The notes: generated by a model not told the origin, from the letters alone. A DNA stretch of 32,000 nucleotides from Flavobacteriaceae bacterium (GCA_965224465.1 OZ245049.1:2160001-2192000); one strand, 5' to 3'. Shown: positions 1 to 14,714, counted from the first letter of the stretch. Program-made: numbers and translations.

Positions 1-225
1 ATCTTCATCTAATTCAATATTTAAATAATTATACTTGTCTTTTGAAAAATAAATACTTTTAATGTTTATTTTTTTTTGAGGAGTATCTTCAGTTACTTCA
101 TAAATAGAAGCGTCAAAGCTTTCAATACTTGTCGCTGTTGGAAATCCAAAAATAGTTATCTTATTATTTAAATTAGCATTATTACAAGTTGTAATTGTTT
201 TTTTACAAGAAATTAAGGCAATAGC
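1..225 (-). pseudogene. Immunity-family lipoprotein gene of orphan cassette 1, main body; disrupted by IS21 and running off the window start
   Basis: The minus-strand frame is open from 219 down to 1 (ALISCKKTITTCNNANLNNKITIFGFPTATSIESFDASIYEVTEDTPQKKINIKSIYFSKDKYNYLNIELDED). It joins in frame to 2812..2777 (MKNYVIYISLAI) once the IS and one copy of the target duplication are removed. The joined product has a signal peptide with lipobox LISC. Confidence 0.7.
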
Positions 226-302
226 TGTTTATATTAACCCAAAAGTATACCACTATTTCAGTCGAAAAGTATACCAGTAAATTTAAATAAAAAAACTGGT
301 TT

Positions 303-346
303 CACAAGACATTAAAAAAAGGGTACCCTTTTTTTAATGTCTTGTG
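303..346 (-). terminator. Perfect 22-bp-arm palindrome centred on GGTACC, downstream of istB and inside the IS
   Basis: cacaagacattaaaaaaagggt / accctttttttaatgtcttgtg is a perfect inverted repeat. On the minus strand it is followed by AACCAGTTTTTTTATTT. Confidence 0.4.
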
Positions 347-376
347 AAGTTGAGTTTTGGATGTTTTTTTTCATTT

Positions 377-1146
377 TTAGTTTGTTTTTAGGGCATTCAT
401 TTCTTTGGTCTCTTTTAGGCGATAAGAGGCTCCATTCATATTTATTAAATGAGCCTTATGTGTGAGACGATCTACTAAAGCGGCAGTTAATATAGGGTCA
501 CCAAATATTTCTTCCCAATGATCAAAGCCTAAGTTAGTGGTTATAATCGTTGATTTTCGACCTGTTCTTAATGAAAGGTGATTAAAGAGTAGTTCTGCGC
601 CACTTCTGTCAAAAGAAACGTAGCCAAATTCGTCACATATCACCAAATCGTACTTTTCAAAACGGAGCTCTACTTGCCTTAATGTTCTGTTTGAGTGTGA
701 CTCCCTCAGTAAGGTTAACAAACGGTGTACTGTTATAAAAAGCACCTTATATCCTTGCATACAAGCTTTTAATCCAAGTCCTGTTGCTATGTGTGTTTTT
801 CCTGTTCCTGGATTCCCTGCTAGTATTATGTTTTGACCTGATTTTATAAAATCGGGCGTTCTAATATTGGAAGTTTGTCTTTTGCATCTATGGGTAGTTG
901 TTCTAAATTCAACTCATTTAAATACATTTTTGAAGGAAAACCAGCCTGTCGTATCTGGCTTTTTTTCCTGTTTTCTAACCTTCTTTCATATTCTCTTTCC
1001 ATTAATTGCAGTAAAAATTCTTCATAAGAAGCTCCTGTTTCAGTAGACTCAATGGCGAGTTGTTCAAAGTCTCTTCCAAATATTGGTAAACGAAGATTTT
1101 TACTGTATTGTGCTATTTGTATATGTGTGTTGCTTGTCGTTATCAT
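377..1146 (-). pseudogene. istB: IstB-like AAA+ ATPase helper of IS21, split into two ORFs (844-1146 and 377-760) by a frameshift near 853-856
   Basis: The frame of ORF 377-760 extends upstream as DFIKSGQNIILAGNPGTGKTHIATGLGLKACMQGYK (Walker A). The upstream ORF ends ...KLPILERPIL*. Adding one nucleotide after CGC CC restores LERPDFIKSGQN. This is either a real inactivating deletion or a sequencing error. Confidence 0.85.
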
Positions 1147-2687
1147 GATGATAGGTTTTGATTCATTAAACTGGTTAGTTCATATAAATGACTTTTTGCA
1201 AAATTGTAGGTTTGGTTTTTTGTAAACGCGATCACTTTTTCATCTTCGGTCTTATTCCCTAGTAATGCTTTTATTTTTTCCAAAGTAAGAGCTCCTGAGC
1301 TGCCTTTAGACAGGCGCTCTACAGTGGTTTCTAAATGCTCATTATCTATTTGATATTTCTTGCAAAAGATAAGTAACTCAATAAATTCTTTTGGTTTTTC
1401 TGTGAAAAATTGCACAAATATTTCTTTTAAATAGTCACTATTTAATAAAGCAACACTGTCACGGAGTGCTCCTGGTTTTCGCTTAAAAGTATCTAGATAA
1501 TGCTCAATATTAACAAGCCATTTATGCACTTCATAACTACGAAGATGATTAGCTACATGTTTGTTTACATGGTATATTTCTAATTTTAAACTGTATATTT
1601 TTACAGAAACAAATTCTCCTACTAAGCTGTCGGGTACTGAATATCGATTTTGTAAAAAACCAATCGTAGCGTATTTATCTACTCGATATTCCTTTGTATA
1701 ACAGCACTTAAGTGGATACGGTTGTTTGTGTAAAAAAGGCTTCTCTAAAGAGAAAAGCTCCATCGCTGTTTTTTTTGTAAGCTGTTGTTTCGTGTTATTT
1801 AAGGTGTTTAATGTTTCTAATAAATGAGACTGTGCAGACTCTATGGAGTCAAATTTAGTATCAAAACTAAAAGCTTTTCGCCTTATGTATTCGACACTTC
1901 TCTCCACATGTCCTTTTTCATTTCCTTTACGAACGTTGCAAAAACGATGTCTAAAATTATAATGCCCCTTTAAATCTAACAATGCTTGTGTAGGTTCTTT
2001 TTCCGTTCTTCCGATAAATTTAGCTACAGCTACACGCATATTATCATAAATCATTTCTTGATAAACACCCTCTACATGACTGTGAAAGTCAATATGAGAC
2101 TCCATAAATGCTAAGGTGTCTTGGCGATGATAAAGTACCGCATAGCGATAATTACTGTAAGCTGCTGTAAATACTGCCAATTGAAGCCTTACCAACTCGT
2201 TCCCTATATGGAGTTTAAGTTCTCCCCAGTCAAATTCACAACTACCTCCTGGAGTGTACGACTGACGAATAAAAGCTTCTTTAGAACTTAGTCCCTTTGT
2301 TTTTTTTCTAATATAGTTGCAAACAGTGGTGTATCCAATAGAAAAACCCTGCTGTTTAAGACGCTGATAAATATCTATCTTTTTTAATAACTGTTTCCGT
2401 AGGCCTAGTGATTTGTTTTCTTTGTTTTTTTCTAAAAGCAAATCAATAGCAACCTGTATTTCAGGTGTTAAACAAATTTTAGGACGCATTCCTACATGGT
2501 ACATTGGAGCAGACAACTTAGTAGTGTCTACCTGTGTGTTTTCCTTGTTTTCGGAAGCAACGTATTGATCAATGTATTTTTTGACCGTAGTTCTGCTAAT
2601 TCTTAAATCTTTGGAAATAAATCGCTGACTTTTACCTTCACGATAATATTGAAGTATTATTTCTTGTTTTGTATACATGCTAATCAT
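1143..2687 (-). CDS. istA: IS21-family transposase IstA (514 aa)
   Basis: There is an N-terminal HTH (KSQRFISKDLRISRTTVKKYI) and a DDE integrase-like core. The gene sits immediately upstream of istB and overlaps it, within an element bounded by inverted repeats. Confidence 0.9.
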   Translation of the reverse strand: MISMYTKQEIILQYYREGKSQRFISKDLRISRTTVKKYIDQYVASENKENTQVDTTKLSAPMYHVGMRPKICLTPEIQVAIDLLLEKNKENKSLGLRKQLLKKIDIYQRLKQQGFSIGYTTVCNYIRKKTKGLSSKEAFIRQSYTPGGSCEFDWGELKLHIGNELVRLQLAVFTAAYSNYRYAVLYHRQDTLAFMESHIDFHSHVEGVYQEMIYDNMRVAVAKFIGRTEKEPTQALLDLKGHYNFRHRFCNVRKGNEKGHVERSVEYIRRKAFSFDTKFDSIESAQSHLLETLNTLNNTKQQLTKKTAMELFSLEKPFLHKQPYPLKCCYTKEYRVDKYATIGFLQNRYSVPDSLVGEFVSVKIYSLKLEIYHVNKHVANHLRSYEVHKWLVNIEHYLDTFKRKPGALRDSVALLNSDYLKEIFVQFFTEKPKEFIELLIFCKKYQIDNEHLETTVERLSKGSSGALTLEKIKALLGNKTEDEKVIAFTKNQTYNFAKSHLYELTSLMNQNLSS

Positions 2688-2776
2688 ATTTAATCAATAT
2701 AAGAAACTTATATTGATATGGTTAAGTGGTATACTTTTCGGTTAATAGGTGGTATGGTTTTCGGTTAACATATACA

Positions 2777-2812
2777 AATAGCTAAAGAGATGTAAATGAC
2801 GTAGTTTTTCAT
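2777..2812 (-). pseudogene. 5-prime end (12 codons) of the IS21-disrupted immunity lipoprotein gene of cassette 1
   Basis: The ATG at 2812-2810 overlaps the TGA stop (2811-2809) of the upstream toxin-tail ORF as ATGA. It reads MKNYVIYISLAI and continues in frame at 219. Confidence 0.65.
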
Positions 2813-3147
2813 TTTTTAAATTTTAAATATCCATAGTAATTTGCAATGTATTGTTTTTTGCTGATTTTAATCTTTTCTGCTTCATCTAGATTATCATTTT
2901 TAAACTGCCCCCAAGTAACCACGTTAAATTCAATATCTGTAATTTCATCATAATCAGATTCAGATTCTTTATCGTTTAAAAGTTCTAATCCCCCTTCATA
3001 GACAACCCAATGATACTCGCCAAAATCACTTAATGAATAATTGGCTTCAGGTTTTTTATTTACCAAAGGCCAATTTATGGCAGAAGCATCTTGTCCTTTC
3101 TTACCTGTATAACCAAAATTACTTTCTTTACTACGAGTGGTAGCCAT
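2809..3147 (-). CDS. Orphan toxin tail 1 (112 aa): a 5-prime-truncated, internally deleted paralogue of the 405-aa toxin, lacking the catalytic-Cys region
   Basis: Positions 3066-3153 appear nucleotide-identical to 6555-6642 of the full-length gene (MATTRSKESNFGYTGKKGQDASAINWP). About 60 codons present in the other copies are missing. A divergent tail follows: ...DFGEYHWVVYEGGLELLND...NYYGYLKFKK. Confidence 0.7.
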   Translation of the reverse strand: MATTRSKESNFGYTGKKGQDASAINWPLVNKKPEANYSLSDFGEYHWVVYEGGLELLNDKESESDYDEITDIEFNVVTWGQFKNDNLDEAEKIKISKKQYIANYYGYLKFKK

Positions 3148-3153
3148 AGTAAT

Positions 3154-3305
3154 TTCAACTTTTTGAACAGTCGTATATCCCCATGAGAATTAGAATTGAT
3201 TTACACTTACAACTAGAAACGACCTAAAAATCTCGTACGTACAGCGGTGTGAGAGGCGCCTGCCAACTAATCTAGCTGGAGTCGTCTGCTCGACTACAAA
3301 ACGTT
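3154..3305 (-). repeat. 152-bp GC-enriched element, copy a (near-identical to 5495-5646); probable relic of toxin N-terminal coding sequence
   Basis: It differs from copy b at 3 positions by eye and fills exactly the gap between the immunity-2 stop and orphan tail 1. In the orphan's frame it reads RFVVEQTTPARLVGRRLSHRCTYEIFRSFLVVSVNQF*FSWGYTTVQKVEIT-MATT. Compare RKIVEQQIEERL...GGTSLCGMACLFYIF...HNGYTVE in the full-length gene. Confidence 0.6.
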
Positions 3306-3310
3306 TCGTT

Positions 3311-3796
3311 CTACTGATTTTCATTTTTCACAAAAGAAGCAACACCACCATTTTGAAGATTATTATTCACTTTCAATTCATAAAAATCACATCCCCAGTT
3401 TTTTGATAACATTGCAAAATGTGGCCTGACAATGTATTTAAAGCCTGACAAAAAGTATTTTTCATTATTCTTAAAATTCAAAACAACAGTGTCATTTAAA
3501 CTAATTTTTTGGATAATACTTGAAGCTCGCTGGTTTCTTGAGCTATCTATCATTTTTTCAGGAACTACAATAGTAAATGTTTTTTTTTGAGTCCCTCTTA
3601 TTTCTACATCAATTCTAGATATTTCTTCATATTTGTAGTTAAAAAAATAAAGTTCAATTCCTTCTATCGACTTTTTGTTTTCACATTCATTTTTTGCCTG
3701 TTCAAGCTTGTACTCTTCATCTTTTTTTGTTTGACAACTAATAAATATGAACAAAAAACAGAAAAGGGAAATTTTATTTAAATTTAATATATCCAT
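3311..3796 (-). CDS. Immunity-family lipoprotein of orphan cassette 2 (161 aa)
   Basis: It has a signal peptide plus lipobox (LFIFISC). Its start overlaps the last 23 nt of orphan tail 2. It is distantly similar to the other three downstream lipoproteins (shared ...Y.L...F... and LKVNNN-type motifs). Confidence 0.7.
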   Translation of the reverse strand: MDILNLNKISLFCFLFIFISCQTKKDEEYKLEQAKNECENKKSIEGIELYFFNYKYEEISRIDVEIRGTQKKTFTIVVPEKMIDSSRNQRASSIIQKISLNDTVVLNFKNNEKYFLSGFKYIVRPHFAMLSKNWGCDFYELKVNNNLQNGGVASFVKNENQ

Positions 3797-4349
3797 AATA
3801 ATTGTTTCTATATGCTTTTTTACTTATTCCTTTGCTAGTTCTAGAATTAATAATAAGCTCTCCCCAAGTAAAACATTTGAATTTTATAATTTTCACTTCA
3901 TCATAATCAGATTCAGTTTTCTTTTCTGAATTTAAAAGATCAAGTCCTCCCTCATAAGTTACCCAATGATACTCACCAAAGTCTGTTATGTCATAATCAG
4001 ATTTATTACTCATCATATCCGCATCAATCATCATACATATTTCATATCCGTTTTGATAATCTTTATCAATATCTTTTTCTAAAATTCTAATTTTTTCATC
4101 AGACCCAAAAAAATCTCTTATGTATGACTTATTAACCTTATAATAATCCATTTCTACGGTACTATATCCTAAGAGTTTCTTTCCTAAACTAGTCATTAAC
4201 CAAGGCCAATTTATGGCAGAAGCATCTTGTCCTTTCTTACCTGTATAACCAAAATTACTTTCTTTACTACGAGTGGTAGCCATAGTAATCCAGTCAACTT
4301 CAGGTATCCAAGGATGTTCTTTGGAAGTTTCCGGATCTGTATTATACAT
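3774..4349 (-). CDS. Orphan toxin tail 2 (191 aa): 5-prime-truncated paralogue of the 405-aa toxin
   Basis: Positions 3952-4373 match 6305-6726 of the full-length gene, a 422-bp block that looks identical and extends 24 nt upstream of the listed ATG. The first 133 aa are identical, after which the tail diverges (GLDLLNSEKKTESDYDEVKIIKFKCFTWGELIINSRTSKG...NYYGYIKFK). An in-frame stop lies 2 codons upstream of the homology breakpoint. Confidence 0.75.
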   Translation of the reverse strand: MYNTDPETSKEHPWIPEVDWITMATTRSKESNFGYTGKKGQDASAINWPWLMTSLGKKLLGYSTVEMDYYKVNKSYIRDFFGSDEKIRILEKDIDKDYQNGYEICMMIDADMMSNKSDYDITDFGEYHWVTYEGGLDLLNSEKKTESDYDEVKIIKFKCFTWGELIINSRTSKGISKKAYRNNYYGYIKFK

Positions 4350-4491
4350 TTCTTCTTTCGCATCTTTATCAGGTCGTTAGCGATGGAGGTTATTCGTACA
4401 ACAGCGGAAAAAACTTTGGCTTAAGTACTAAAACCCGTATTTTCTATAACTTCCTGTTCTAAACCGTTTTCTTTTTTTATAGAGAGTATTC

Positions 4492-4992
4492 TTATTTTAA
4501 GGGAATACCAAAATTTTTACTAAGCTTTAATGTTCCTCCAATCTCATTAATATAACTACTATTTACTTTTATACTATCTACTTCACAAAGTATTTTCGTT
4601 TTAAACATCATCTTCCTAGAAAATTGTTTAAAAGTATAATCACTAATCATATATTTTGTCTCTTGATTAGTGACTAATATATAATTATGCTCTGTATTTA
4701 GCTCTATTATATCAAAACCTATTTCAACGGGAGCATATTTATCTGTTTTATATTTATTTGAAATATACCTAGGTTTAATACTGTCTATTCTTCTTTTAAA
4801 GCTATTACTTTTAAAAACTAAGAGATAGGCACTTTCTATTATTGGATCGTCTTCTTGAAAATCATAGATATCAATAAACGGTTTTAGCTCCAAATAATTG
4901 CAGTTTTTATCTTTATCATCTGTACATGAAACAAGAAAAAAAGATAAGGAAAACACTAAAAGTATTTTTTTATTTAAATTTAAGGTATCCAT
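4492..4992 (-). CDS. Immunity-family lipoprotein of orphan cassette 3 (166 aa)
   Basis: It has a signal peptide plus lipobox (FFLVSC). Its start (MDTLNLNK) overlaps the last 23 nt of orphan tail 3. Confidence 0.7.
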   Translation of the reverse strand: MDTLNLNKKILLVFSLSFFLVSCTDDKDKNCNYLELKPFIDIYDFQEDDPIIESAYLLVFKSNSFKRRIDSIKPRYISNKYKTDKYAPVEIGFDIIELNTEHNYILVTNQETKYMISDYTFKQFSRKMMFKTKILCEVDSIKVNSSYINEIGGTLKLSKNFGIPLK

Positions 4993-5488
4993 AATAGTTC
5001 GCTATAAATTGGTCTTTGGTAATTTTTATTTTATTATCATTTTTATCACATCTTAATTTACCCCAAGTGGCTACATTAAAATTAATATTAGTCACCTTAT
5101 CATAATCTGTTTCAAGTTTACCATCTTTGTTTAAAATTTCTACCCCCCCTTCATAGACAACCCAATGATACTCGCCAAAATCATCTAAGGAATAATTAGC
5201 GTCAGGTTTTTTATCTACCATACTTCCATCAATCATCATACATATTTCATATCCGTTTTGATAATCTTTATCAATATCTTTTTCTAAAATTCTAATTTTT
5301 TCATCAGACCCAAAAAAATCTCTTATGTATGACTTATTAACCTTATAATAATCCATTTCTACGGTACTATATCCTAAGAGTTTCTTTCCTAAACTAGTCA
5401 TTAACCAAGGCCAATTTATGGCAGAAGCATCTTGTCCTTTCTTACCTGTATAACCGAAATTACTTTCTTTACTACGAGTGGTAGCCAT
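4970..5488 (-). CDS. Orphan toxin tail 3 (172 aa): 5-prime-truncated paralogue of the 405-aa toxin
   Basis: Positions 5227-5494 match 6375-6642 of the full-length gene (268 bp, one mismatch noticed). After ...GYEICMMID it switches to a variant segment (GSMVDKKPDANYSLDDFGEYHWVVYEGG) shared with orphan 1, followed by a unique tail. Confidence 0.75.
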   Translation of the reverse strand: MATTRSKESNFGYTGKKGQDASAINWPWLMTSLGKKLLGYSTVEMDYYKVNKSYIRDFFGSDEKIRILEKDIDKDYQNGYEICMMIDGSMVDKKPDANYSLDDFGEYHWVVYEGGVEILNKDGKLETDYDKVTNINFNVATWGKLRCDKNDNKIKITKDQFIANYYGYLKFK

Positions 5489-5494
5489 AGTAAT

Positions 5495-5646
5495 TTCAAC
5501 TTTTGGAACAGTCGTATATCCCCATGAGAATTAGAAATGATTTACACTTACAACTAGAAACGACCTAAAGATCTCGTACGTACAGCGGTGTGAGAGGCGC
5601 CTGCCAACTAATCTAGCTGGAGTCGTCTGCTCGACTACAAAACGTT
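5495..5646 (-). repeat. 152-bp GC-enriched element, copy b (see 3154-3305)
   Basis: It is near-identical to copy a and sits between the stop of the cognate immunity gene (5649) and orphan tail 3. Confidence 0.6.
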
Positions 5647-5648
5647 AT

Positions 5649-6116
5649 TTATTTTTCTTTACCTAAAGTTTTATCAAATTGTAAGTGATTATTTTTTTGA
5701 TTTATAACATTATTATTCACCTTATATTTTTTTAATAAACAATATTTTTGAATTGTGATAGCTGTTCCTCGATTAACATTATCAATTTCAAAATCTGATA
5801 TTTCAAAGACTAAAGAATCATTTAAAATTAGTTTGTAATTATTTTTTGTTTTTAAAATACCTGAAGTTCGTAGACGTAATTCGTCTCCATTATTAACTGA
5901 ATATGGGTTTATTATGTCTTTTAAAAAATATGAATTTAATTCAGTTTTTTTTTCGTTTTTAGAATATTCATAAATCACAGCTTTTTTAATTGTTGGATCG
6001 TTTTTATCCCATCCATAAATAAATATATCAGAGTTTAGTATTAAGAAATTTCCACATTGTTGATCAAAGTTACAAGCAAGTAAGGTTAAAAAAAATAAAA
6101 AATTAACTTTTTTCAT
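5649..6116 (-). CDS. Lipoprotein, putative cognate immunity of the full-length toxin (155 aa)
   Basis: It has a signal peptide plus lipobox (TLLAC). It starts 1 nt after the toxin stop and belongs to the same loose family as the three orphan-linked lipoproteins. Confidence 0.7.
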   Translation of the reverse strand: MKKVNFLFFLTLLACNFDQQCGNFLILNSDIFIYGWDKNDPTIKKAVIYEYSKNEKKTELNSYFLKDIINPYSVNNGDELRLRTSGILKTKNNYKLILNDSLVFEISDFEIDNVNRGTAITIQKYCLLKKYKVNNNVINQKNNHLQFDKTLGKEK

Positions 6117-6117
6117 G

Positions 6118-7335
6118 TTATCTTAGTTTTATATATCCGTAATAATTATTTATAAAAGAAGCTTTTGATAATCGTAACTTTTTTTTATCTGAACATTTGT
6201 CTCTTTTAAAGTCTCCCCAAGTAACAACGTCAAATTTTACATCTGTTACTATATCATAATCAGATTCAGTTTCGCCTTTAGAATTTAATATTTCTAGATT
6301 CCCTTCATAAGTTACCCAATGATACTCACCAAAGTCTGTTATGTCATAATCAGATTTATTACTCATCATATCCGCATCAATCATCATACATATTTCATAT
6401 CCGTTTTGATAATCTTTATCAATATCTTTTTCTAAAATTCTAATTTTTTCATCAGACCCAAAAAAATCTCTTATGTATGACTTATTAACCTTATAATAAT
6501 CCATTTCTACGGTACTATATCCTAAGAGTTTCTTTCCTAAACTAGTCATTAACCAAGGCCAATTTATGGCAGAAGCATCTTGTCCTTTCTTACCTGTATA
6601 ACCAAAATTACTTTCTTTACTACGAGTGGTAGCCATAGTAATCCAGTCAACTTCAGGTATCCAAGGATGTTCTTTGGAAGTTTCCGGATCTGTATTATAC
6701 ATTTCTTCTTTCGCATCTTTATCAGGCTCTACCGTATACCCATTGTGAATTGCCTTCCCTGTTCTATGAAGTGTTTCTGCAAGTTTTTTATAACCTTGTT
6801 TGTCCTTTTTAACAAAAATATAAAACAAACAAGCCATCCCGCAAAGTGAAGTTCCTCCTTGATTTATTTTCCACGGCTTATTTAATCTTTCTTCTATTTG
6901 TTGTTCTACAATTTTTCTATCAAAATATCTAAATCTGTAATGGTGAAACACATCTAATTCAGCTTCTTTTGACTTATCTTCTATATAGGCATAGAAAGTG
7001 ATTTCTCGTCCACAAAAATCTAAATCATCAGTTTTAAAAGTGATTTTTTCTCCTGTTTGTTTGATATTACCAATAACAACTTCATTGTCTTTTGAATAGC
7101 CATAGTTCCATTTTATATTACTGGTGTTTTTTGGAGGCTTGTTGTTTTTAAATTTCGTAACTTTTAACGTATATTCTTTACCATGAATCATACCTTTAGA
7201 CTTGTTAGTTCCTCCGTTGGTAGAACCTTCATCTAAATCGAATATTTCAATTTTTTCAACAAAACATTTTTTTACCTTAGGCAGTTTAATCGTAGTTTTA
7301 GTATTTGGATACCCTTTTATTATTACTGTTGCCAT
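6118..7335 (-). CDS. Full-length polymorphic toxin/effector (405 aa): N-terminal beta-rich domain of unknown function plus papain-fold, C39-like cysteine hydrolase domain
   Basis: The motif NQGGTSLCGMACL matches the Q-x5-C-G-x-A-C-L signature I recall for peptidase C39-type papain-fold enzymes. A candidate catalytic His lies in GEYHWVTYEG. The gene starts 2 nt after the TssD-like gene stop and is followed by a lipoprotein gene. Confidence 0.7.
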   Translation of the reverse strand: MATVIIKGYPNTKTTIKLPKVKKCFVEKIEIFDLDEGSTNGGTNKSKGMIHGKEYTLKVTKFKNNKPPKNTSNIKWNYGYSKDNEVVIGNIKQTGEKITFKTDDLDFCGREITFYAYIEDKSKEAELDVFHHYRFRYFDRKIVEQQIEERLNKPWKINQGGTSLCGMACLFYIFVKKDKQGYKKLAETLHRTGKAIHNGYTVEPDKDAKEEMYNTDPETSKEHPWIPEVDWITMATTRSKESNFGYTGKKGQDASAINWPWLMTSLGKKLLGYSTVEMDYYKVNKSYIRDFFGSDEKIRILEKDIDKDYQNGYEICMMIDADMMSNKSDYDITDFGEYHWVTYEGNLEILNSKGETESDYDIVTDVKFDVVTWGDFKRDKCSDKKKLRLSKASFINNYYGYIKLR

Positions 7336-7337
7336 AA

Positions 7338-8027
7338 TTAATTTTCTTGTAAAATTGCTTTTAAGGGGATGGATTCAATATCGTTAGTGATTTGAACTTC
7401 TAACGTATCGTTTTCTAGTTTTATTCCATGATGTTCATAATCTAATTTCTGATCATCTAAGTTAAACTTAAACGTTTTTCCCACAGCGTTGCTACTTTCT
7501 ATTACGAGCATAATTTCTTCATCAACATCAATATCATTTTTTTCAAGTTCATTCCCATCTAAATCTTCTATATGATATTTATTGATCTCTGGTTCATCAT
7601 TTAAAACTGTTGGTTCAACAGTATCTTCTTTAAAAGTTTCTCTCCAAGAGGCAGAATACACACCAAACGAGTTAGAATCTTCTACACCAGCACAGGTAAT
7701 TTCTAAAGTTTCCGTCATTGGATCTGAGCCTGTAGAAGAAAAATTGGTTTTCCAATTTACAAGATGACAGTCATAGAAAAATATTTTTCTTGTTTTCCCT
7801 CCCACAATAACGGAATTAATATGTAATACTAGCTGTTTTGTTTGCCTGGAGGAAAAAGACCATTCCGTAAGATTTATGTCTTTTCTAGTTTCTATAATTA
7901 GTTTAAAACCTAGAAATATAGGTGTCTGTGAGGGTCTGCCGTTAGGGTTTGCTCCTTGATTAAATCTGATCGTAAACAATAGTACGTTTACTTCTTTTCC
8001 ATCTATTATTAATGTTGCTTTTACCAT
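7338..8027 (-). CDS. tssD: TssD/Hcp-like T6SS tube protein with an acidic C-terminal extension of about 100 aa (229 aa)
   Basis: The N-terminal ~125 aa (KATLIIDGKEVNVLLFTIRFNQGANPNGRPSQTPIFLGFKLIIETRKDINLTEWSF...GSDPMTETLEITCAGV) follow the pattern I recall for Bacteroidota TssD (L..DG.E.NVL....F.Q.....GRPS..P.GG......E......L.EW ... PM...L.I). This call is from memory, not from a search. Confidence 0.6.
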   Translation of the reverse strand: MVKATLIIDGKEVNVLLFTIRFNQGANPNGRPSQTPIFLGFKLIIETRKDINLTEWSFSSRQTKQLVLHINSVIVGGKTRKIFFYDCHLVNWKTNFSSTGSDPMTETLEITCAGVEDSNSFGVYSASWRETFKEDTVEPTVLNDEPEINKYHIEDLDGNELEKNDIDVDEEIMLVIESSNAVGKTFKFNLDDQKLDYEHHGIKLENDTLEVQITNDIESIPLKAILQEN

Positions 8028-8766: not shown

Positions 8767-9102
8767 ATGGATAATTCAGCTATTTTAAAATATTTTGACT
8801 GTCTAGATGTAACTAAGCAGGATATTTTGCTTAAAGAATTTCAGTCTCTTTGTAAATCAGGAAGTTATGTAGATATTATTAAAATGAGAGGGAATGCTTT
8901 AGATGACAGAAGGGGTGAATGCCCTTACTGCAATGGCTATCACTATATAAAAGCAGGTGTTGATAAAAACAGCAGGCGTTATAAATGTAAAGATTGTAAA
9001 CGTACTTTTACTGAATTTACCGGCAGTTGGCTAGCTGGGATACACAAAAAGCAACGCATACCAGCCTTTTTAAAAACACTTGAATTGAATTTAAGTTTGG
9101 TT
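8767..9102 (+). pseudogene. IS1595-family transposase, N-terminal part (zinc ribbon), cut by the IS4 insertion
   Basis: It carries CPYCNGYHY...YKCKDCKRTF. The reading frame ...TLELNLSLV continues as KTGKDLSIDPGTAFRWRH at 10683 once the IS4 element and one TSD copy are removed. Confidence 0.8.
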
Positions 9103-10676
9103 ACTCAAGTTTCGCACCCATCATTTACAGGTGTTTAAGTAAAAATAAATAGCATGAAAACCAAGGTAATCCCCTGGTTTTATTGTACTTTTAAGTACGA
9201 ACAAGAAAGTACAAAACATGCTAGAACACGAAGATATCACAAAAACACAGGAGATAAAAGGAAAATTTAATAAGATTTGGCTTAGTTCAGAATACCTACA
9301 AGCACATCTAAATATTTTAGGATTCAATAAAATTAAAAACAAGTTTAGTTGGTGTAAGAAATCGGGGATTTCATTCGGTAATTTAATCTCTACACTTTTA
9401 ATTTTACCTATTATCGGATTTGATTCTATTCATGGACTTACAAGTAGTAAAGACAAGGGATTAGGTCAGTCGGGTAAAGATTCATACTATCGAATCCTAG
9501 CAAATCAAAAGATAAATTGGAGGGTTTTTCTAGCTCAGTTTGTGAAGCAATATCTATTAAAAGAAGAGTTCTTTACTCCATCTCAAGACGCTACAAAGTG
9601 CTTGATCTTTGACGATACTGATCTTTCTAAAACAGGAAAGACAATTGAAGGTGTTTCAAAAATATACAACCATGTGTCAAAAACGTATTACCTAGGCTTT
9701 AAGCTACTTGTAGCTGGTTATTGGAATGGAAGTGTATTTATCCCTGTTGACTTTAGTTTGCATCGTGAAAGTAAAACATCAAAATTAAAATACGGTCTAA
9801 CGGCGAAGCAACGTAGGCTTCAAAAGAAAACTCCAAGATGTAGTAAAACAATTGCAGCAAAGAGGTATCAGGAACTCAATAAAAAGAAAACAGACCTGCT
9901 AGTTCAAATGTTCTCAAGGCTTGTAAAACGTAAAATCCCCATAGATTACATCTTAATAGATACCTGGTTTACAAGTGTTAAATTACTTAGAAAGCTACGG
10001 AACATTAGTAGTTCAACTCATATTATTGGGATGTATAAATACAACAGTAAGATTGAAGTTCGATCAAAGATAAAAACGTTGTCACAACTCAAAAAACAGA
10101 AAATAAAACCAAAACGATGCCGTAAATTCAATTATTACTACCATCATTACATAACTGAAATTGATGGTCTTAAGGTTGCTGTATTTATTTCAAAAGGTGG
10201 AAAGAATGGCAAATGGCACACGTTAATATCAACGGATACAACACTGAAATTTGTAAAGGCTATTGAAATATACAGTATCAGATGGTCCATAGAAGTGTTT
10301 TTTAAAGAAGCTAAGCAGTTGTTTGGTCTTGGAAAATGTCAGTCTACTAATTTCGATATTCAAATCGCACAAATAAGCATTATAATGGTTCAATATTTAC
10401 TCACCAGTATTCGATATAGAATGGAAGCCTACGAAACTATAGGAGGCTTGTTTAAAGATTTAAAACAAGATTATATAGAGAATAAGCTAAACATCAGGAT
10501 ATTAGCAGTTATCAGCTTGGTGATTGACATTTTGGAAAAGATGATTGAATCTATTGATGTTGAAATGGTTACACGTAAAATAATAGCGAATATTGAAGAT
10601 TTTGGATTCCTAGTGAATACCCACAAGCTTAACTATCAAGAGGTTGCGTAAATCTATCTAAGTGCGAAACTTGAGT
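9103..10676 (+). mobile_element. IS4-family insertion sequence, 1574 bp, with perfect 15-bp terminal inverted repeats and a 6-bp (possibly 7-bp) target duplication TTGGTT
   Basis: The left repeat is actcaagtttcgcac (9103-9117) and the right repeat is gtgcgaaacttgagt (10662-10676). TTGGTT occurs at 9097-9102 and 10677-10682. Confidence 0.85.
9218..10651 (+). CDS. IS4-family DDE transposase (477 aa)
   Basis: The C-terminal motif YSIRWSIEVFFKEAK fits the Y-x2-R-x3-E-x6-K signature. The gene lies within an element bounded by inverted repeats. Confidence 0.85.
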   Translation: MLEHEDITKTQEIKGKFNKIWLSSEYLQAHLNILGFNKIKNKFSWCKKSGISFGNLISTLLILPIIGFDSIHGLTSSKDKGLGQSGKDSYYRILANQKINWRVFLAQFVKQYLLKEEFFTPSQDATKCLIFDDTDLSKTGKTIEGVSKIYNHVSKTYYLGFKLLVAGYWNGSVFIPVDFSLHRESKTSKLKYGLTAKQRRLQKKTPRCSKTIAAKRYQELNKKKTDLLVQMFSRLVKRKIPIDYILIDTWFTSVKLLRKLRNISSSTHIIGMYKYNSKIEVRSKIKTLSQLKKQKIKPKRCRKFNYYYHHYITEIDGLKVAVFISKGGKNGKWHTLISTDTTLKFVKAIEIYSIRWSIEVFFKEAKQLFGLGKCQSTNFDIQIAQISIIMVQYLLTSIRYRMEAYETIGGLFKDLKQDYIENKLNIRILAVISLVIDILEKMIESIDVEMVTRKIIANIEDFGFLVNTHKLNYQEVA

Positions 10677-11378
10677 TTGGTTAAAACAGGAAAGGATCTT
10701 TCCATAGATCCAGGGACGGCATTTAGATGGCGTCATCGTTTTTTATCTGCTATGTTCCAAGAAACCACAGGTCATTTCAAAGGAATCACCGAGAGTGATG
10801 AGACCTTTTATTTACACAGTCAAAAAGGTAAAAAGTGTGTACATAGACCTCCCAGAAGTAGATCCGAAAAGAAAGGGGCAGGTATAACAAAAGAATACGC
10901 AACGGTATTAACAACCCAAGATAGAGCAGAACTATGCGTTTCTAAATTTACAAATATGGGCAGAATTACCAAGAGTAATATAAAAAACACTATCGGAAGC
11001 ATGGTAGATAATAGAACCGTATTTTGTTCTGATGGACACCGTAGTTTTACTGGGTTTAGTAAGGATTTACATTTAGAGCATCATGTTTTAAACAGTAGTA
11101 AAAACCAACGAGTCAAAGGGACTTATCATATTCAGCACATCAATAGTTTGCATAGTAGGTTAAAGACATTTTGTAACGTAAAATTAAAAGGAGTATCCAC
11201 AAAATATCTTCAAAAATATTTAAATTGGCAAACAATTAAAGATTCATATCGTAAAGAATCAAATTGGGTAGTTACTGTCCTTAAGTACTCAATGAAACGT
11301 TCAAATGCAATTAAAATATATAACAATATCCAAACTGATTATGACAAAATTTTTATAACAACGCTAAATGCTAGTTGA
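10677..11378 (+). pseudogene. IS1595-family transposase, C-terminal (DDE) part
   Basis: It continues the 8767-9102 frame. The listed GTG start at 10662 lies inside the IS4 right inverted repeat and is an artefact. Confidence 0.8.
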
Positions 11379-11486
11379 GCCAAAATAAAATGAAATAATT
11401 ATTTTTTTACAAACACCACGAAAACGATTGAACAGTACGTTTCTGACAATAAACGGTAAGTTTTCTTTAATAAACGGTATAATTAA

Positions 11487-11518
11487 CTTGTGTTAACCAA
11501 TAATTCATTGTAACTTTG
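11487..11518 (+). promoter_or_regulatory. Candidate Bacteroidota sigma-A promoter for the CAP gene (TTG-N20-TAACTTTG), repeated in units 2 and 3
   Basis: TAACTTTG at 11511-11518 matches the -7 consensus TAnnTTTG, with cTTG 20 nt upstream. The same motif occurs at 12755-12762 and 13998-14005. It is embedded in overlapping inverted repeats (attgtaac/gttacaat and gtcaaaa/ttttgac). Confidence 0.35.
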
Positions 11519-11646
11519 CAATGTCAAAAAGAAACATGTTACAATTTTGACGCAAAAAAAAAGCTACTTAAATAACACATTGAATCTGATCAATCCAACT
11601 GTTATTAAGACTATCAAAAACTAAAATTCTTCTAAAATTTTACACT

Positions 11647-12189
11647 ATGAAAGCAACAGTAAAAAATTTCTTGATCATTTCTTTAATCACTATTAGTTCT
11701 ATTTCTTTCACTTCTTGCTCTAAAGACGGAGCTACCGAAGACATCTACTTAAACGAAGACCAAACAAGCGCAGTTAACAACGCTACAGGAAACACCACTA
11801 CATATACTTACACTTCTATAGAAAACGAGACCATTAACATAGTAAACACATACAGAGCATCTATTGGACTAAACAGCCTTACAAAAATAAGTTCAATCTC
11901 TGAGCAAGCAGCAACTCACACAAACTACATTATTAAGAAAGGAAAAATAAGCCACGACAATTTTAATCAACGTTCAAATTTCTTAAAAAATAACATACGT
12001 GCAAAATCTGTAGGTGAAAATGTAGCTTCTGGATTCTCTACTGCTAAATCTGTTTTAAACGGATGGTTAAACAGCCCTACACACAGAGCAATTATAGAAG
12101 ACCCGAAATACACACACACTGGAATAGCTATCAAAACTGATGAAAATGGTAAAAAGTATTTTGTTCAGATGTTTGTTGTAAAAAAATAA
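11647..12189 (+). CDS. CAP/SCP (PR-1-like, YkwD-type) domain lipoprotein, copy 1 (180 aa)
   Basis: It has a signal peptide plus lipobox (SFTSC). The CAP-type pattern is N.YR...GL..L......A..H..Y......SH..F..R......VGENVA.G......V..W..SP.HR..I. It differs from copies 2 and 3 at 2 residues. Confidence 0.85.
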   Translation: MKATVKNFLIISLITISSISFTSCSKDGATEDIYLNEDQTSAVNNATGNTTTYTYTSIENETINIVNTYRASIGLNSLTKISSISEQAATHTNYIIKKGKISHDNFNQRSNFLKNNIRAKSVGENVASGFSTAKSVLNGWLNSPTHRAIIEDPKYTHTGIAIKTDENGKKYFVQMFVVKK

Positions 12190-12225
12190 AACCCCGTAAT
12201 AATTCAATCAGATTACTGATGCCGT

Positions 12226-12261
12226 CAGCCTTTCATATCAAATGAAAGGCTGTTTGTTTTT
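12226..12261 (+). terminator. Rho-independent terminator after CAP copy 1
   Basis: The hairpin is cagcctttcat-atcaa-atgaaaggctg, followed by tttgttttt. Confidence 0.7.
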
Positions 12262-12336
12262 AATACGTTTGCCTATTCATCACGCCTCATCTAAACAACG
12301 CCTTCACCTCTTTATAATAGAACAGCTTCCTTTTAT

Positions 12337-12390
12337 ACCAAATACATTTCTGTAATAAACTATAACTATCTGTTATTTTGGATTGTAATT
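12337..12390 (-). repeat. Short derivative of the MITE-like element, retaining both ends and lacking the interior
   Basis: accaaatacatttc...tttggattgtaatt matches the two ends of the full element at 14827-14980. The interior is replaced by ~25 nt. Confidence 0.45.
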
Positions 12391-12890
12391 AGCATTAGTA
12401 CATTCATTCAACGCCCCCAACCCAAGGAACCGAGGAATAAATCACTCCATGAAGGAATAAAACAGTTCGTTTCTTTAACAGCTTTTTAAAAAACCAAATT
12501 CCCTTTACCAAAACCCAAACCATTTTACGCTATAAAACTGCTTTATCTTAAGAAGTTAAACTCAAAAAAGAACTCTTAAACACAATAAAACACAACTAAA
12601 AACAGGAATACACACTGTTTTTTAGAAAATAAAATGAAATAATTAATTTTTTACAAACGCCACGAAAACGATTGAACAGTACGTTTCTAACAATAAACGG
12701 TAAGTTTTCTTTAATAAACGGTATAATTAACTTGTGTTAACCAATAATTCATTGTAACTTTGCAGTGTCAAAAAGAAACATGTTACAATTTTGACGCAAA
12801 AAAAAAGCTACTTAAATAACACCTTGAATCTGATCAATCCAACTGTTATTAAGACTATCAAAAACTAAAATTCTTCTAAAATTTTACACT

Positions 12891-13433
12891 ATGAAAGCAA
12901 CAGTAAAAAATTTCTTGATCATTTCTTTAATCACTATTAGTTCTATTTCTTTCACTTCTTGCTCTAAAGACGGAGCTACCGAAGACATCTACTTAAACGA
13001 AGACCAAACAAGCGCAGTTAACAACGCTACAGGAAACACCACTACATATACTTACACTTCTATAGAAAGTGAAACCATTAATATAGTAAACACATACAGA
13101 GTATCTATCGGACTAAACAGCCTTACAAAAATAAGTTCAATCTCTGAACAAGCAGCAACTCACACAAACTACATTATTAAGAAAGGAAAAATAAGCCACG
13201 ACAACTTTAATCAACGTTCAAATTTCTTAAAAAATAACATACGTGCAAAATCTGTAGGTGAAAATGTAGCTTCTGGATTCTCTACTGCTAAATCTGTTTT
13301 AAACGGATGGTTAAACAGCCCTACACACAGAGCAATTATAGAAGACCCGAAATACACACACACTGGAATAGCTATCAAAACTGATGAAAATGGTAAAAAG
13401 TATTTTGTTCAGATGTTTGTTGTAAAAAAATAA
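12891..13433 (+). CDS. CAP/SCP domain lipoprotein, copy 2 (180 aa)
   Basis: The protein is identical to copy 3. Confidence 0.85.
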   Translation: MKATVKNFLIISLITISSISFTSCSKDGATEDIYLNEDQTSAVNNATGNTTTYTYTSIESETINIVNTYRVSIGLNSLTKISSISEQAATHTNYIIKKGKISHDNFNQRSNFLKNNIRAKSVGENVASGFSTAKSVLNGWLNSPTHRAIIEDPKYTHTGIAIKTDENGKKYFVQMFVVKK

Positions 13434-13469
13434 AACCCCGTAATAATTCAATCAGATTACTGATGCCGT

Positions 13470-13505
13470 CAGCCTTTCATATCAAATGAAAGGCTGTTTG
13501 TTTTT
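13470..13505 (+). terminator. Rho-independent terminator after CAP copy 2
   Basis: It has the same hairpin and T-run as 12226-12261. Confidence 0.7.
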
Positions 13506-13580
13506 AATACGTTTGCCTATTCATCACGCCTCATCTAAACAACGCCTTCACCTCTTTATAATAGAACAGCTTCCTTTTAT

Positions 13581-13634
13581 ACCAAATACATTTCTGTAAT
13601 AAACTATAACTATCTGTTATTTTGGATTGTAATT
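13581..13634 (-). repeat. Short derivative of the MITE-like element (unit 2 copy)
   Basis: It is identical in structure to 12337-12390. Confidence 0.45.
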
Positions 13635-14678: not shown

Positions 14679-14714
14679 AACCCCGTAATAATTCAATCAG
14701 ATTACTGATGCTGT

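What the first reader, a model, noticed from the sequence alone, without database searches (positions are those of the whole stretch)
3066..6726. Long direct repeats that look nucleotide-identical end at different points inside the toxin domain, giving a mosaic recombination substrate
Seen in sequence:
- Full-length 6305-6726 matches orphan 2 at 3952-4373 (422 bp).
- Full-length 6375-6642 matches orphan 3 at 5227-5494 (268 bp, one mismatch noticed).
- Full-length 6555-6642 matches orphan 1 at 3066-3153 (88 bp).
Beyond each block, similarity drops abruptly to a diverged but alignable sequence.

The segment before the His motif exists in two versions. Full-length and orphan 2 have ADMMSNKSDYDITDFGEYHWVTYEG. 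Orphans 1 and 3 have (GSM)V.KKP(D/E)ANYSL.DFGEYHWVVYEGG. All four tails after YEG(G) differ. This points to repeated gene conversion with different tract ends.

Inference: recombination between the expressed gene and an orphan would delete the intervening DNA. It would fuse the Cys-containing N-terminal half to a new His-proximal tail and bring in the matching immunity gene. The swap point lies within one predicted catalytic fold rather than at a domain linker, which is unusual for polymorphic toxins.
Basis: partly seen in the sequence, partly recalled or inferred. Interest (0 to 1): 0.65.

Follow-up and report, generated by a model that had tools for sequence, protein, structure and literature searches.

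The report
Orphan toxin-tail and immunity cassette array
A marine flavobacterium carries one complete secreted-toxin gene followed by three leftover toxin ends, each with its own antidote gene and each sharing a perfectly identical stretch with the complete gene; this is the familiar spare-cassette arrangement of bacterial warfare toxins, except that the swappable part lies inside the enzyme itself.

Summary
The full-length gene (6118-7335, minus strand) shares 422/422, 267/268 and 88/88 identical bases with orphans 2, 3 and 1, and similarity then drops to 61-71%.

The locus is a type VI secretion effector array: Hcp, then a 405-aa toxin, then a lipoprotein immunity gene, then three 5'-truncated toxin fragments, each with its own immunity gene.

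The toxin has an Ig-like N-domain and a papain/calpain-like domain. Gln159, Cys165 and His339 are invariant in 50 homologues. All block ends (codons 261, 320, 344) lie inside that domain.

Across genera the core stays 85-91% identical. The last ~60 residues fall into discrete types that co-vary with immunity type. The same boundaries recur in Aquimarina and Flavobacterium covae.

Recombinants with orphans 2 and 3 would be in frame and resemble natural toxins. Orphan 1 lacks 60 codons, and an IS21 element splits its immunity gene.

Orphans 1 and 3 both start at a group II intron relic.

Verdict: a new variant of the known orphan-cassette / C-terminal-displacement kind. No recombinants were observed, and gene conversion is not distinguished from displacement.

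The parts
7338..8027 (-). TssD/Hcp tube-protein gene (229 aa) with a ~100-aa C-terminal extension. Its stop codon lies 2 nt before the toxin start codon.
   Evidence: Pfam PF17642 TssD, E 1.7e-24. Junction sequence read. Many homologues of the toxin are fused to TssD or to DUF4280.
6118..7335 (-). Full-length toxin (405 aa): Ig-like beta-sandwich (about residues 26-132) followed by a papain/calpain-like domain (about 133-405). Gln159, Cys165, Asp230 and His339 are invariant.
   Evidence: ORF. Alignment of 50 homologues. AlphaFold2 model with pLDDT 87.7. Foldseek top hits are calpain protease cores, E 4e-5. No Pfam, NCBIfam or PDB sequence hit.
5649..6116 (-). Immunity gene I_FL (155 aa, lipoprotein signal ending LLAC).
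   Evidence: ORF. 62-67% identical to the gene that follows FL-type toxins in Flavivirga and Tenacibaculum.
5495..5648 (+). Spacer 'E152'. It holds the conserved cassette-end motif AACGTTTTGTA (5636-5646, read on the gene strand) and a relic of the last ~107 nt of a group II intron (domains V-VI), antisense to the toxin genes.
   Evidence: Covariance model R1 hit at 5539-5649 (+), 35 bits, E 1e-9. Intact copies elsewhere adjoin an RVT_1+GIIM ORF and Rfam group-II D1-D4 hits.
4970..5494 (-). Orphan 3: toxin codons about 232-405. 267/268 identical to FL over 5227-5494, then pre-His version 2 and its own tail.
4492..4992 (-). Immunity gene I_O3 (166 aa, lipoprotein signal ending LVSC). 28% identical to I_FL.
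4374..4491 (.). 118-nt spacer with no detectable homology to the toxin gene. It marks the abrupt 5' end of orphan 2.
   Evidence: Global alignment to the FL sequence upstream of 6726 is no better than shuffles (499 of 500 shuffles reach the observed score).
3774..4373 (-). Orphan 2: toxin codons 204-405. 422/422 identical to FL over 3952-4373, including the His motif, then its own tail.
   Evidence: The tail is 88-89% identical to the tails of full-length P0007/P0008.
3311..3796 (-). Immunity gene I_O2 (161 aa, lipoprotein signal ending FISC).
   Evidence: 75% identical to the gene that follows the O2-type toxin P0008 in L009.
3154..3308 (+). Second copy of the E152 spacer / group II intron relic. 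Together with the first 94 nt of O1 it forms a 246-nt, 98% identical direct repeat of 5401-5646.
   Evidence: Repeat family D5. R1 hit at 3156-3308 (+), 44 bits, E 8e-13.
2809..3153 (-). Orphan 1: codons 232-261 (88/88 identical to FL), a 60-codon in-frame deletion (FL codons about 262-321), pre-His version 2 and its own tail.
   Evidence: The deletion junction CCTT|TGGTA was read.
1..2812 (-). Immunity gene I_O1 (lipoprotein signal ending LISC). It starts at 2812, is interrupted after codon 12, and resumes at 219 running off the window start.
   Evidence: Reconstruction. 62% identical to the gene that follows the O1/O3-type toxin P0010 in L010.
226..2776 (-). IS21-family element (istA 1143-2687; istB split into 844-1146 and 377-760), flanked by the 6-bp target duplication GCTATT.
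   Evidence: Pfam hits for Mu-transpos_C_2/rve and IstB_IS21. Ends and duplication read.

Best explanation
This is a type VI secretion (Bacteroidota-type) effector locus. It belongs to an uncharacterised papain/calpain-like toxin family that probably acts in the periplasm.

The family is polymorphic inside its catalytic domain. The delivery/Ig part and the Cys-bearing lobe are nearly constant. A C-terminal module (from about codon 321, and most strongly codons 345-396 after the catalytic His) exists as discrete, old allele classes, each tied to its own lipoprotein immunity gene.

The array was built by recombination among such alleles. New 'tail + immunity' units were joined to the expressed gene through the conserved core. 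Older 3' fragments and their immunity genes were kept downstream. At least one junction was made by illegitimate joining to a group II intron relic and was then duplicated. The near-perfect identity of the shared segments reflects conspecific donors, later homogenisation by gene conversion, or both.

The retained immunity genes most likely protect against neighbours that still fire those toxin variants. The 422-nt and 268-nt repeats additionally allow RecA-type deletion or cassette replacement that would express the O2 or O3 tail with its own immunity gene. Orphan 1 is a dead relic.

Shown: the sequence architecture, the breakpoints, the fold prediction, the tail/immunity co-variation and the recurrence in other genera.

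Inferred: the immunity function, the periplasmic target, the recombination history and any switching.
For: - Exact identity blocks with statistically sharp ends.
- Segment mosaic: codons 232-261 are identical in all four copies; 262-320 are identical in FL, O2 and O3; 321-344 split into two versions; the tails are 61-71% identical in every pair.
- Hcp gene directly upstream. Homologues are fused to TssD or DUF4280, or sit after TssD-TssD-VgrG in F. columnare.
- Confident model, calpain-core fold hits, and Gln159-x5-Cys165 plus His339 invariant.
- Homologues with 85-91% identical cores carry tails of distinct types. FL-type tails (81-82%) go with immunity 62-67% identical to I_FL. O2-type tails (88-89%) go with immunity 75% identical to I_O2. 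O1/O3-like tails (72-73%) go with immunity 62% identical to I_O1. Different immunity types are at most 28% identical.
- The same boundary occurs elsewhere. Two Aquimarina contigs share their first 77 nt, stay nearly identical to about nt 195, and diverge right after MMIDGDMV. A F. covae orphan starts at MMID, and that genome has a three-unit array.
- In-frame recombinants.
- A second flanking repeat (246 nt, 98%) lies downstream of both the FL and the O2 cassette, so both are bracketed by homology on both sides.
- Intron-relic junction shared by O1 and O3.
- Published precedents for displacement and orphan recombination: PMC5361080, PMC3967940.
Against: - No recombinant or chimeric junction, and no sister strain, could be examined. 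The next-best protein in 5.8 billion is only 82% identical.
- Toxicity, immunity and periplasmic action are untested.
- The structural match to calpain is modest (TM 0.3-0.4, rmsd 7-8 A), and no third catalytic residue was identified.
- No other T6SS structural gene lies in the 32-kb window.
- Perfect identity of three separate blocks is not easily explained by old displacement events alone, so ongoing homogenisation must be assumed.
- A deletion-type switch would discard I_FL (and I_O3) and should be counter-selected among siblings.
Confidence: 0.7

Rival explanations
1. Programmed switching reservoir. The orphans are silent cassettes kept intact by selection. They are used at appreciable frequency (RecA-mediated deletion after duplication, or double-crossover conversion using the 422-nt and 246-nt flanks) to change the expressed toxin tail and immunity, in the manner of pilin-type variation. 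This overlaps with the best explanation but makes switching the main function.
For: - Orphan 2 and 3 reading frames and their immunity genes are intact.
- The identity blocks are perfect.
- The recombinants are in frame and resemble natural toxins.
- The FL and O2 cassettes are bracketed by homology on both sides.
- Experimental precedent for orphan Rhs activation exists (PMC3967940).
Against: - Orphan 1 is deleted internally and its immunity gene is split by an IS. F. covae has a frameshifted orphan. So decay is tolerated.
- Most relatives (L001-L003) have no orphan within 10 kb.
- Deletion loses the current immunity gene.
- No junction data are available.
Confidence: 0.25
2. Local tandem duplication followed by in-place divergence. 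The cassettes are copies of one ancestral unit. Their tails and immunity genes diverged under diversifying selection, while the 5' parts were conserved or homogenised.
For: - Roughly regular spacing (1148-1205 nt).
- All immunity proteins are lipoproteins of similar size, and I_FL and I_O3 are distantly related (28% identity).
Against: - Each tail type and its immunity type has closer relatives in other genera (73-89% for tails, 62-75% for immunity) than inside the array (51-57% for tails, at most 28% for immunity). The alleles therefore predate the array.
- Transitions from 100% to about 65% identity occur within a few bases.
Confidence: 0.04
3. Assembly artefact. The identical blocks result from collapsed or chimeric assembly of a strain mixture or of repeats.
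For: Repeats of this kind do break short-read assemblies, as seen in the Aquimarina MAG, whose two contigs start inside the repeat and share a 77-nt overlap.
Against: - Each copy has unique flanks on both sides, and the array is continuous.
- The protein database records this gene on a 5.24-Mb contig.
- Comparable arrays exist in complete Flavobacterium genomes.
Confidence: 0.03

Closest known systems
Orphan rhs-CT/rhsI and cdiA-CT/cdiI modules (C-terminal displacement; Poole et al. 2011, PMC3150448; Koskiniemi et al. 2014, PMC3967940)
   Same: - A full-length toxin gene with its cognate immunity gene, followed by 5'-truncated toxin fragments that each carry their own immunity gene.
- The orphans share a stretch of near-identical sequence with the full-length gene (522 bp at 95% identity in Salmonella), which allows recombination to express the orphan tip.
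- A simple deletion has the same cost: the current immunity gene is lost.
   Different: - In those systems the homology lies in the Rhs core or the CdiA stalk, upstream of a motif-delimited toxin domain, and the tips are unrelated toxins. Here all copies are one toxin family, and the homology extends into, and ends within, the catalytic domain. Only the post-His part changes.
- Delivery is by Hcp of a Bacteroidota-type T6SS.
- Block identity is 99.6-100%.
Vibrio cholerae T6SS orphan immunity arrays formed by sequential effector displacement (Kirchberger et al. 2017, PMC5361080)
   Same: - T6SS effector-immunity modules are exchanged by homologous recombination.
- Older immunity genes, and sometimes effector 3' ends, are kept downstream.
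- Homology-facilitated illegitimate recombination is proposed for the insertions.
- Retained immunity is proposed to protect against kin.
   Different: - Vibrio arrays are mostly immunity genes without long effector fragments.
- Perfect staggered repeats with the active effector are not their hallmark.
- The phylum, the T6SS subtype and the effector family all differ.
Nuclease colicins / pyocins with allelic immunity specificities within one toxin fold
   Same: One conserved catalytic fold with a hypervariable, immunity-specifying region and co-evolving immunity proteins.
   Different: - They are plasmid- or pyocin-encoded single pairs, not chromosomal arrays of truncated copies.
- There are no identity blocks that would act as recombination handles.
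Clan CA papain-like cysteine peptidases (calpain protease core); T6SS Tae-type papain-like amidases (the latter from own knowledge)
   Same: - Gln six residues before a Cys at a helix start, and a His on a beta-strand of the second lobe.
- Foldseek top hits are calpain cores.
- The immunity proteins are lipoproteins, which suggests a periplasmic target as for Tae/Tai pairs.
   Different: - No sequence-profile membership (no Pfam, NCBIfam or PDB hit).
- The domain is much larger than Tae effectors.
- The third catalytic residue and the substrate are unknown.

Membership tests
Polymorphic-toxin orphan cassette array (Rhs/CdiA-type C-terminal displacement) | A full-length toxin gene linked to a delivery component and followed by a small cognate immunity gene | tested here: met
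   Hcp (PF17642), then the 405-aa toxin, then a 155-aa lipoprotein gene. The gene pair is conserved in four other genomes. Immunity activity itself was not tested.
Polymorphic-toxin orphan cassette array (Rhs/CdiA-type C-terminal displacement) | Downstream 5'-truncated toxin fragments, each followed by its own immunity gene | tested here: met
   O3, O2 and O1 start at codons about 232, 204 and 232. Each is followed by a distinct lipoprotein gene.
Polymorphic-toxin orphan cassette array (Rhs/CdiA-type C-terminal displacement) | Orphans share high-identity sequence with the full-length gene upstream of the variable part | tested here: met
   422/422, 267/268 and 88/88 identical bases.
Polymorphic-toxin orphan cassette array (Rhs/CdiA-type C-terminal displacement) | The variable region is a whole toxin domain delimited by a conserved boundary motif or linker (VENN, PxxxxDPxGL) | tested here: not met
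   The boundaries fall at codons 261, 320 and 344, inside one predicted papain-like domain. All tails are homologous to each other.
Polymorphic-toxin orphan cassette array (Rhs/CdiA-type C-terminal displacement) | Toxin variants are neutralised only by their cognate immunity protein | not testable with these tools
   The only evidence is indirect: tail type and immunity type co-vary across genomes.
Bacteroidota-type (T6SSiii) Hcp-linked effector | Genetic linkage or fusion to TssD/Hcp, VgrG or PAAR-like domains | tested here: met
   Adjacent TssD gene in the window. Homologues are fused to PF17642 or PF14107. The F. columnare homologue follows TssD-TssD-VgrG.
Bacteroidota-type (T6SSiii) Hcp-linked effector | A complete T6SS apparatus in the same genome, and secretion that depends on it | not testable with these tools
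   No other T6SS structural gene lies in the 32-kb window. The rest of the genome is not available.
Clan CA papain-like cysteine peptidase | Catalytic Cys at the N-terminus of a helix, with an oxyanion-hole Gln about 6 residues upstream | tested here: met
   Cys165 starts helix 165-177 in the model. Gln159 and Cys165 are invariant in 50 sequences. The Gln19/Cys25 spacing in papain is from own knowledge.
Clan CA papain-like cysteine peptidase | Catalytic His on a beta-strand of the second lobe, plus an Asn/Asp third residue | tested here: inconclusive
   His339 is invariant and lies on strand 338-343. No invariant Asn/Asp follows it. Candidates are Asp320, Glu344 and Asp361, but model coordinates could not be inspected.
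Clan CA papain-like cysteine peptidase | Significant fold or profile similarity to known members | tested here: inconclusive
   The 13 Foldseek matches with E <= 0.001 are all calpain cores (best E 4e-5, about 300 aligned columns), but TM is only 0.3-0.4. No Pfam, NCBIfam or PDB sequence hit.
Group II intron (for the spacer before orphans 1 and 3) | Domain V/VI sequence and structure at the 3' end, directly after an RT/maturase ORF, with D1-D4 upstream | tested here: met
   This holds for the intact copies: an RVT_1+GIIM ORF ends inside the element, and there are Rfam group-II-D1D4 hits. The window copies match the covariance model built from 50 copies at E 8e-13 and 1e-9. They are relics of about 110-150 nt without an ORF and give no Rfam hit.
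Integron-like / recombinase-associated immunity gene array | A tyrosine recombinase next to the array, and attC-like repeats between cassettes | tested here: not met
   No integrase-like ORF was seen in the window. The ORFs next to the array are Hcp and transposases. The repeated spacer is a group II intron relic, not an attC.

The most novel reading that the evidence does not exclude
The family carries a dedicated, exchangeable immunity-specificity module inside its catalytic domain: the strands after the catalytic His, possibly including a catalytic residue. The module is bracketed by nucleotide-conserved handles (MMID, DFGEYHWVxYEG, and NYYGY-stop-TAACGTTTTGTAAC). The cell uses the silent cassettes for frequent, selectable switching of toxin tail plus immunity. 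This would amount to antigenic-variation-like cassette exchange acting within an enzyme fold rather than between domains.
Probability: 0.18. Interest if true: 0.65.

Novelty: new variant of a known kind. Interest (0 to 1): 0.42.

Why it matters
The locus offers a compact natural experiment on how a toxin can change its immunity specificity without changing its chemistry. Four tails of about 60 residues sit on an otherwise identical enzyme, each with a candidate cognate immunity protein, and natural full-length counterparts exist in other genera. Specificity determinants could therefore be mapped directly by tail swaps.

It also extends the orphan-cassette / displacement model to Hcp-linked effectors of marine Flavobacteriaceae, including relatives of fish pathogens (Tenacibaculum, Flavobacterium columnare/covae). 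It shows that recombination boundaries can lie inside a catalytic domain.

It does not reveal a new principle. The architecture and its likely logic are those already described for Rhs, CdiA, MafB and Vibrio T6SS effectors.

Tried and rejected
- Integron/attC-like or rAID-like cassette site for the 152-nt spacer: rejected. The spacer is the 3' end of a group II intron family, and relics of it also lie after unrelated genes in L001 and L005.
- Diverged toxin homology upstream of the O2 block, which would have marked a conversion tract bounded on both sides. The tblastn extension to residue 179 is spurious, because a nucleotide alignment is no better than shuffles.
- Sequence-profile identification of the toxin and immunity proteins. 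Pfam, NCBIfam and PDB sequence searches gave nothing significant.
- Rfam on the spacer: no hit. A purpose-built covariance model was needed.
- Locating the window's own genome or sister strains. The exact protein is not on record for context look-up, the genome scan returned only other genera, and the best non-self protein is 82% identical. Array order in sister strains could therefore not be compared.
- Orphan arrays in the closest relatives. None was found within 10 kb in L001-L003. T. ovolyticum (L004) has only a degenerate fragment plus one extra lipoprotein gene.
- The third catalytic residue and the position of the tail relative to the active site could not be read, because model coordinates are not exposed.

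Full report
**1. Observation**

All genes of the feature are on the minus strand. The three claimed matches hold base for base.
- 6305-6726 = 3952-4373: 422/422 identical.
- 6375-6642 vs 5227-5494: 267/268 identical, with the mismatch at 6604.
- 6555-6642 = 3066-3153: 88/88 identical.

A MAFFT alignment of the four units and per-segment counts show a mosaic.
- Codons 232-261 are identical in all four copies, apart from the one O3 mismatch.
- Codons 262-320 are identical in FL, O2 and O3 and are absent from O1.
- Codons 321-344 exist in two versions. FL and O2 are 70/70 identical, O1 and O3 are 91% identical, and the two groups are about 70% identical.
- The tails (codons 345-405) are 61-71% identical in every pair.
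- The immunity genes are 35-49% identical at nucleotide level.

Maximum chi-square tests put the breaks at 6304, 6374 and 6366. None of 2000 permutations reached the observed value.

**2. Anatomy of the locus**

Reading in gene direction, the array is as follows.

| Window coordinates | Element | Evidence |
|---|---|---|
| 7338-8027 | Hcp/TssD, PF17642 | |
| 6118-7335 | 405-aa toxin (FL) | |
| 5649-6116 | Immunity I_FL | |
| 5495-5648 | 152-nt spacer | |
| 4970-5494 | Orphan 3 | |
| 4492-4992 | Immunity I_O3 | |
| 4374-4491 | 118-nt spacer | |
| 3774-4373 | Orphan 2 | |
| 3311-3796 | Immunity I_O2 | |
| 3154-3305 | The same 152-nt spacer | |
| 2809-3153 | Orphan 1 | |
| from 2812 | Immunity I_O1 | |

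- I_O1 is split after 12 codons by a 2551-bp IS21-family element at 226-2776, which has the target duplication GCTATT. The gene resumes at 219.
- All four immunity proteins begin with lipoprotein-type signal peptides ending LLAC, LVSC, FISC and LISC (read). This points to a periplasmic site of action, which is an inference.
The FL cassette (tail plus I_FL) and the O2 cassette (tail plus I_O2) are therefore each bracketed by the 422-nt repeat on one side and the 246-nt repeat on the other.

**3. The toxin**

- No Pfam, NCBIfam or PDB sequence match was found.
- Seventy-six homologues were found, mostly in Flavobacteriaceae (Flavivirga, Tenacibaculum, Aquimarina, Flavobacterium) and some in Chitinophagaceae. 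Many are fused to TssD or to the PAAR-like DUF4280.
- In an alignment of 50 homologues, Gly37, His132, Arg134, Arg150, Gln159, Cys165, Asp230, Pro260, His339 and Trp340 are among the invariant positions.
- AlphaFold2 gives a confident model (pLDDT 87.7, pTM 0.85). It shows a beta-sandwich at about residues 26-132, followed by a helix-rich lobe that starts with Cys165 on helix 165-177. A beta-rich part follows, with His339 on strand 338-343 and further strands at 348-350, 365-371, 386-390 and 398-404.
- The best Foldseek matches in the PDB are all calpain protease cores (E 4e-5, about 300 aligned columns), although TM is only 0.3-0.4.
- The Gln-x5-Cys spacing matches papain and calpain (own knowledge).

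I conclude that residues about 133-405 form one papain-like catalytic domain. All three block ends (codons 261, 320, 344) lie inside it, between the Cys and the C-terminus. The third catalytic residue was not identified.

**4. What the variable part is**

I compared the conserved core (residues 133-320) and the tail (residues 339-405) of the homologues with the four window copies.

| Homologue(s) | Core identity to FL | Tail type and identity | Immunity gene next to it |
|---|---|---|---|
| P0002, P0003, P0005 | 89-91% | FL-type, 81-82% | 62-67% identical to I_FL (L001-L004) |
| P0007, P0008 | 91% | O2-type, 88-89% (only 48-49% to the FL tail) | 75% identical to I_O2 (L009) |
| P0009 | 91% | a fifth type | not compared to a window type |
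| P0010 | 85% | O1/O3-like, 72-73% | 62% identical to the available part of I_O1 (L010) |

Different immunity types are at most 28% identical or not detectably related. Tail type and immunity type therefore travel together across genera on a nearly constant enzyme core. The tail is the best candidate for the immunity-specificity determinant (inference).

**5. The same boundaries elsewhere**

- In an Aquimarina MAG, two contigs begin inside the gene at codon 260. They share their first 77 nt, which fits an assembly-graph branch at a repeat. They stay nearly identical for about 195 nt and diverge right after MMIDGDMV, into different tails and immunity genes.
- In Flavobacterium covae the full-length gene is followed by three units: an immunity gene; an orphan that begins at MMID with its own immunity gene; and a frameshifted orphan (91% identical over 815 nt) with a third immunity gene.
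- T. ovolyticum has a degenerate fragment (YEFEDFGEYYWVIYAG) plus an extra lipoprotein gene.
- The closest relatives L001-L003 have no orphan within 10 kb.

The phenomenon is thus a recurrent property of the family. The window stands out by the perfection of its repeats.

**6. The spacer**

The 152-nt spacer before O1 and O3 contains a motif that I first suspected to be a cassette recombination site. A scan with a 20-base core returned more than 120 metagenome contigs, often near contig ends.
- In long contigs the element lies directly after, and overlaps the end of, a 420-450-aa ORF on the opposite strand. That ORF is a group II intron reverse transcriptase/maturase (RVT_1 at E 4e-41 and GIIM at E 7e-15).
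- Rfam finds group II D1-D4 segments upstream of the ORF.
- The element shows compensatory changes in its hairpins.
- A covariance model built from 50 copies hits the window at 3156-3308 (+; 44 bits, E 8e-13) and 5539-5649 (+; 35 bits, E 1e-9). It also hits T. ovolyticum directly after the immunity gene, and L001, L005, L006 and L011.

The spacer is therefore a relic of domains V-VI of an intron, antisense to the toxin genes. O1 and O3 share one and the same junction (intron relic | toxin codon about 232, at the microhomology AAGTTGA). That junction arose once by illegitimate joining and was later duplicated.

Relics of this intron also follow unrelated genes, so the intron is a marker of history rather than part of a cassette machinery. 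A short motif, TAACGTTTTGTAAC, follows immunity genes of different types in several genera. The intron relic interrupts it.

**7. Consequences of recombination**

Crossovers within the repeats would delete 2353, 1148 or 3489 bp and give uninterrupted ORFs.

| Crossover | Deleted | Product | Comment |
|---|---|---|---|
| FLxO2 | 2353 bp | 402 aa | 242/269 identical to natural P0008 over the toxin domain, better than FL itself (218/272) |
| FLxO3 | 1148 bp | 405 aa | intact |
| FLxO1 | 3489 bp | 345 aa | lacks 60 residues that all 50 homologues possess; its immunity gene is disrupted |

O1 is therefore a dead relic. A deletion-type switch also removes I_FL, and for O2 it removes I_O3 as well. 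In Salmonella Rhs the same problem is avoided by prior duplication of the locus (PMC3967940).

**8. How it arose**

The orphans are 5'-truncated and have no diverged homology upstream. The blocks therefore do not carry the classical signature of conversion tracts embedded in diverged homologous sequence.

Their 3' ends coincide with allele-class boundaries seen in other genera. The tail and immunity alleles are older than the array, because they are closer to alleles in other genera than to each other. This excludes simple duplication followed by divergence.

The most economical reading has three parts.
- Tail-immunity units were added successively by recombination in the conserved core, with older 3' ends kept downstream. 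This is the displacement model of Rhs and Vibrio T6SS arrays (PMC5361080).
- Illegitimate joints contributed, as the intron junction shows.
- Either the donors were conspecific or the shared parts were later homogenised.

I cannot separate the last two options.

**9. Comparison and verdict**

The system works like orphan Rhs/CdiA/MafB cassettes and Vibrio immunity arrays. It meets their architectural criteria except one: the variable unit is not a separate toxin domain behind a boundary motif but a sub-module of a single catalytic fold.

That difference, together with an uncharacterised papain-like T6SS effector family in Flavobacteriaceae, makes it a new variant of a known kind.

Interest is moderate. 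It is a clean, testable case for mapping immunity specificity and for measuring toxin switching, but it is not a new principle.

Noticed in passing
window 3156-3308 (+) and 5539-5649 (+); intact copies e.g. L129 10788-12850, L120, L066, L001 809-2174: The spacer before orphans 1 and 3 is a relic of domains V-VI of a group II intron family that is very widespread in Bacteroidota metagenomes. A 20-base core hit more than 120 contigs, many of them at contig ends. Relics typically lie antisense, immediately after the stop codon of a neighbouring gene, and the flanks often read ...ATAACG... The family's class and homing target were not worked out.
   Followed up: partly
window 5636-5646 and 3295-3305 (minus strand); L001, L003, L004, L006, L009, L011 just after the immunity stop codon: A short motif, (A)TAACGTTTT(G/A)TAAC, follows immunity genes of different types in several genera. 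In the window and in T. ovolyticum the intron relic interrupts it. It could be a conserved cassette end, a terminator element or the intron's target.
   Followed up: partly
window 226-2776: An IS21-family element (intact istA; istB split into two ORFs) is inserted in the immunity gene of orphan 1, with the 6-bp target duplication GCTATT.
   Followed up: yes
window 7338-8027 vs 6118-7335: Here Hcp (with an extra ~100-aa C-terminal extension) and the toxin are separate ORFs 2 nt apart. In Flavivirga, Tenacibaculum and Aquimarina the same toxin is fused directly to a TssD domain, or to DUF4280. Whether the split is ancestral or a recent break was not examined.
   Followed up: no
window 11375-14700 and 15268-15780: Three tandem, nearly identical copies of a 180-aa CAP/SCP-family lipoprotein gene (period 1243-1244 nt; 11647-12189, 12891-13433, 14136-14678), plus a fourth, diverged paralogue.
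   Followed up: partly
window 8767-11378: Nested insertion sequences just upstream of the Hcp gene. An IS1595-type transposase gene (8767-9138 and 10662-11378) is interrupted by a DDE (IS4-like) transposase gene (9218-10651).
   Followed up: partly
window 24157-25038 and 29728-30609: Two almost identical PorP/SprF (type IX secretion) genes lie 5.6 kb apart. One sits next to a 938-aa CHU_C-tagged adhesin-like gene (25600-28416), and an IS1595 transposase gene lies at 30689-31630. This suggests a recent segmental duplication.
   Followed up: no
L132 9368-10747 (Flavobacterium columnare CP018912): The homologous toxin, located after TssD-TssD-VgrG, is split by a stop codon near the catalytic Cys region into 199-aa and 248-aa ORFs. 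The effector in this fish pathogen strain is apparently inactivated, while its immunity gene is kept.
   Followed up: partly
L010 1-11903: A stand-alone homologue with an O1/O3-like tail sits next to conjugation genes (TraG/T4SS-DNA_transf, TraO) and a reverse transcriptase. The toxin-immunity pair can therefore ride on a conjugative element.
   Followed up: no
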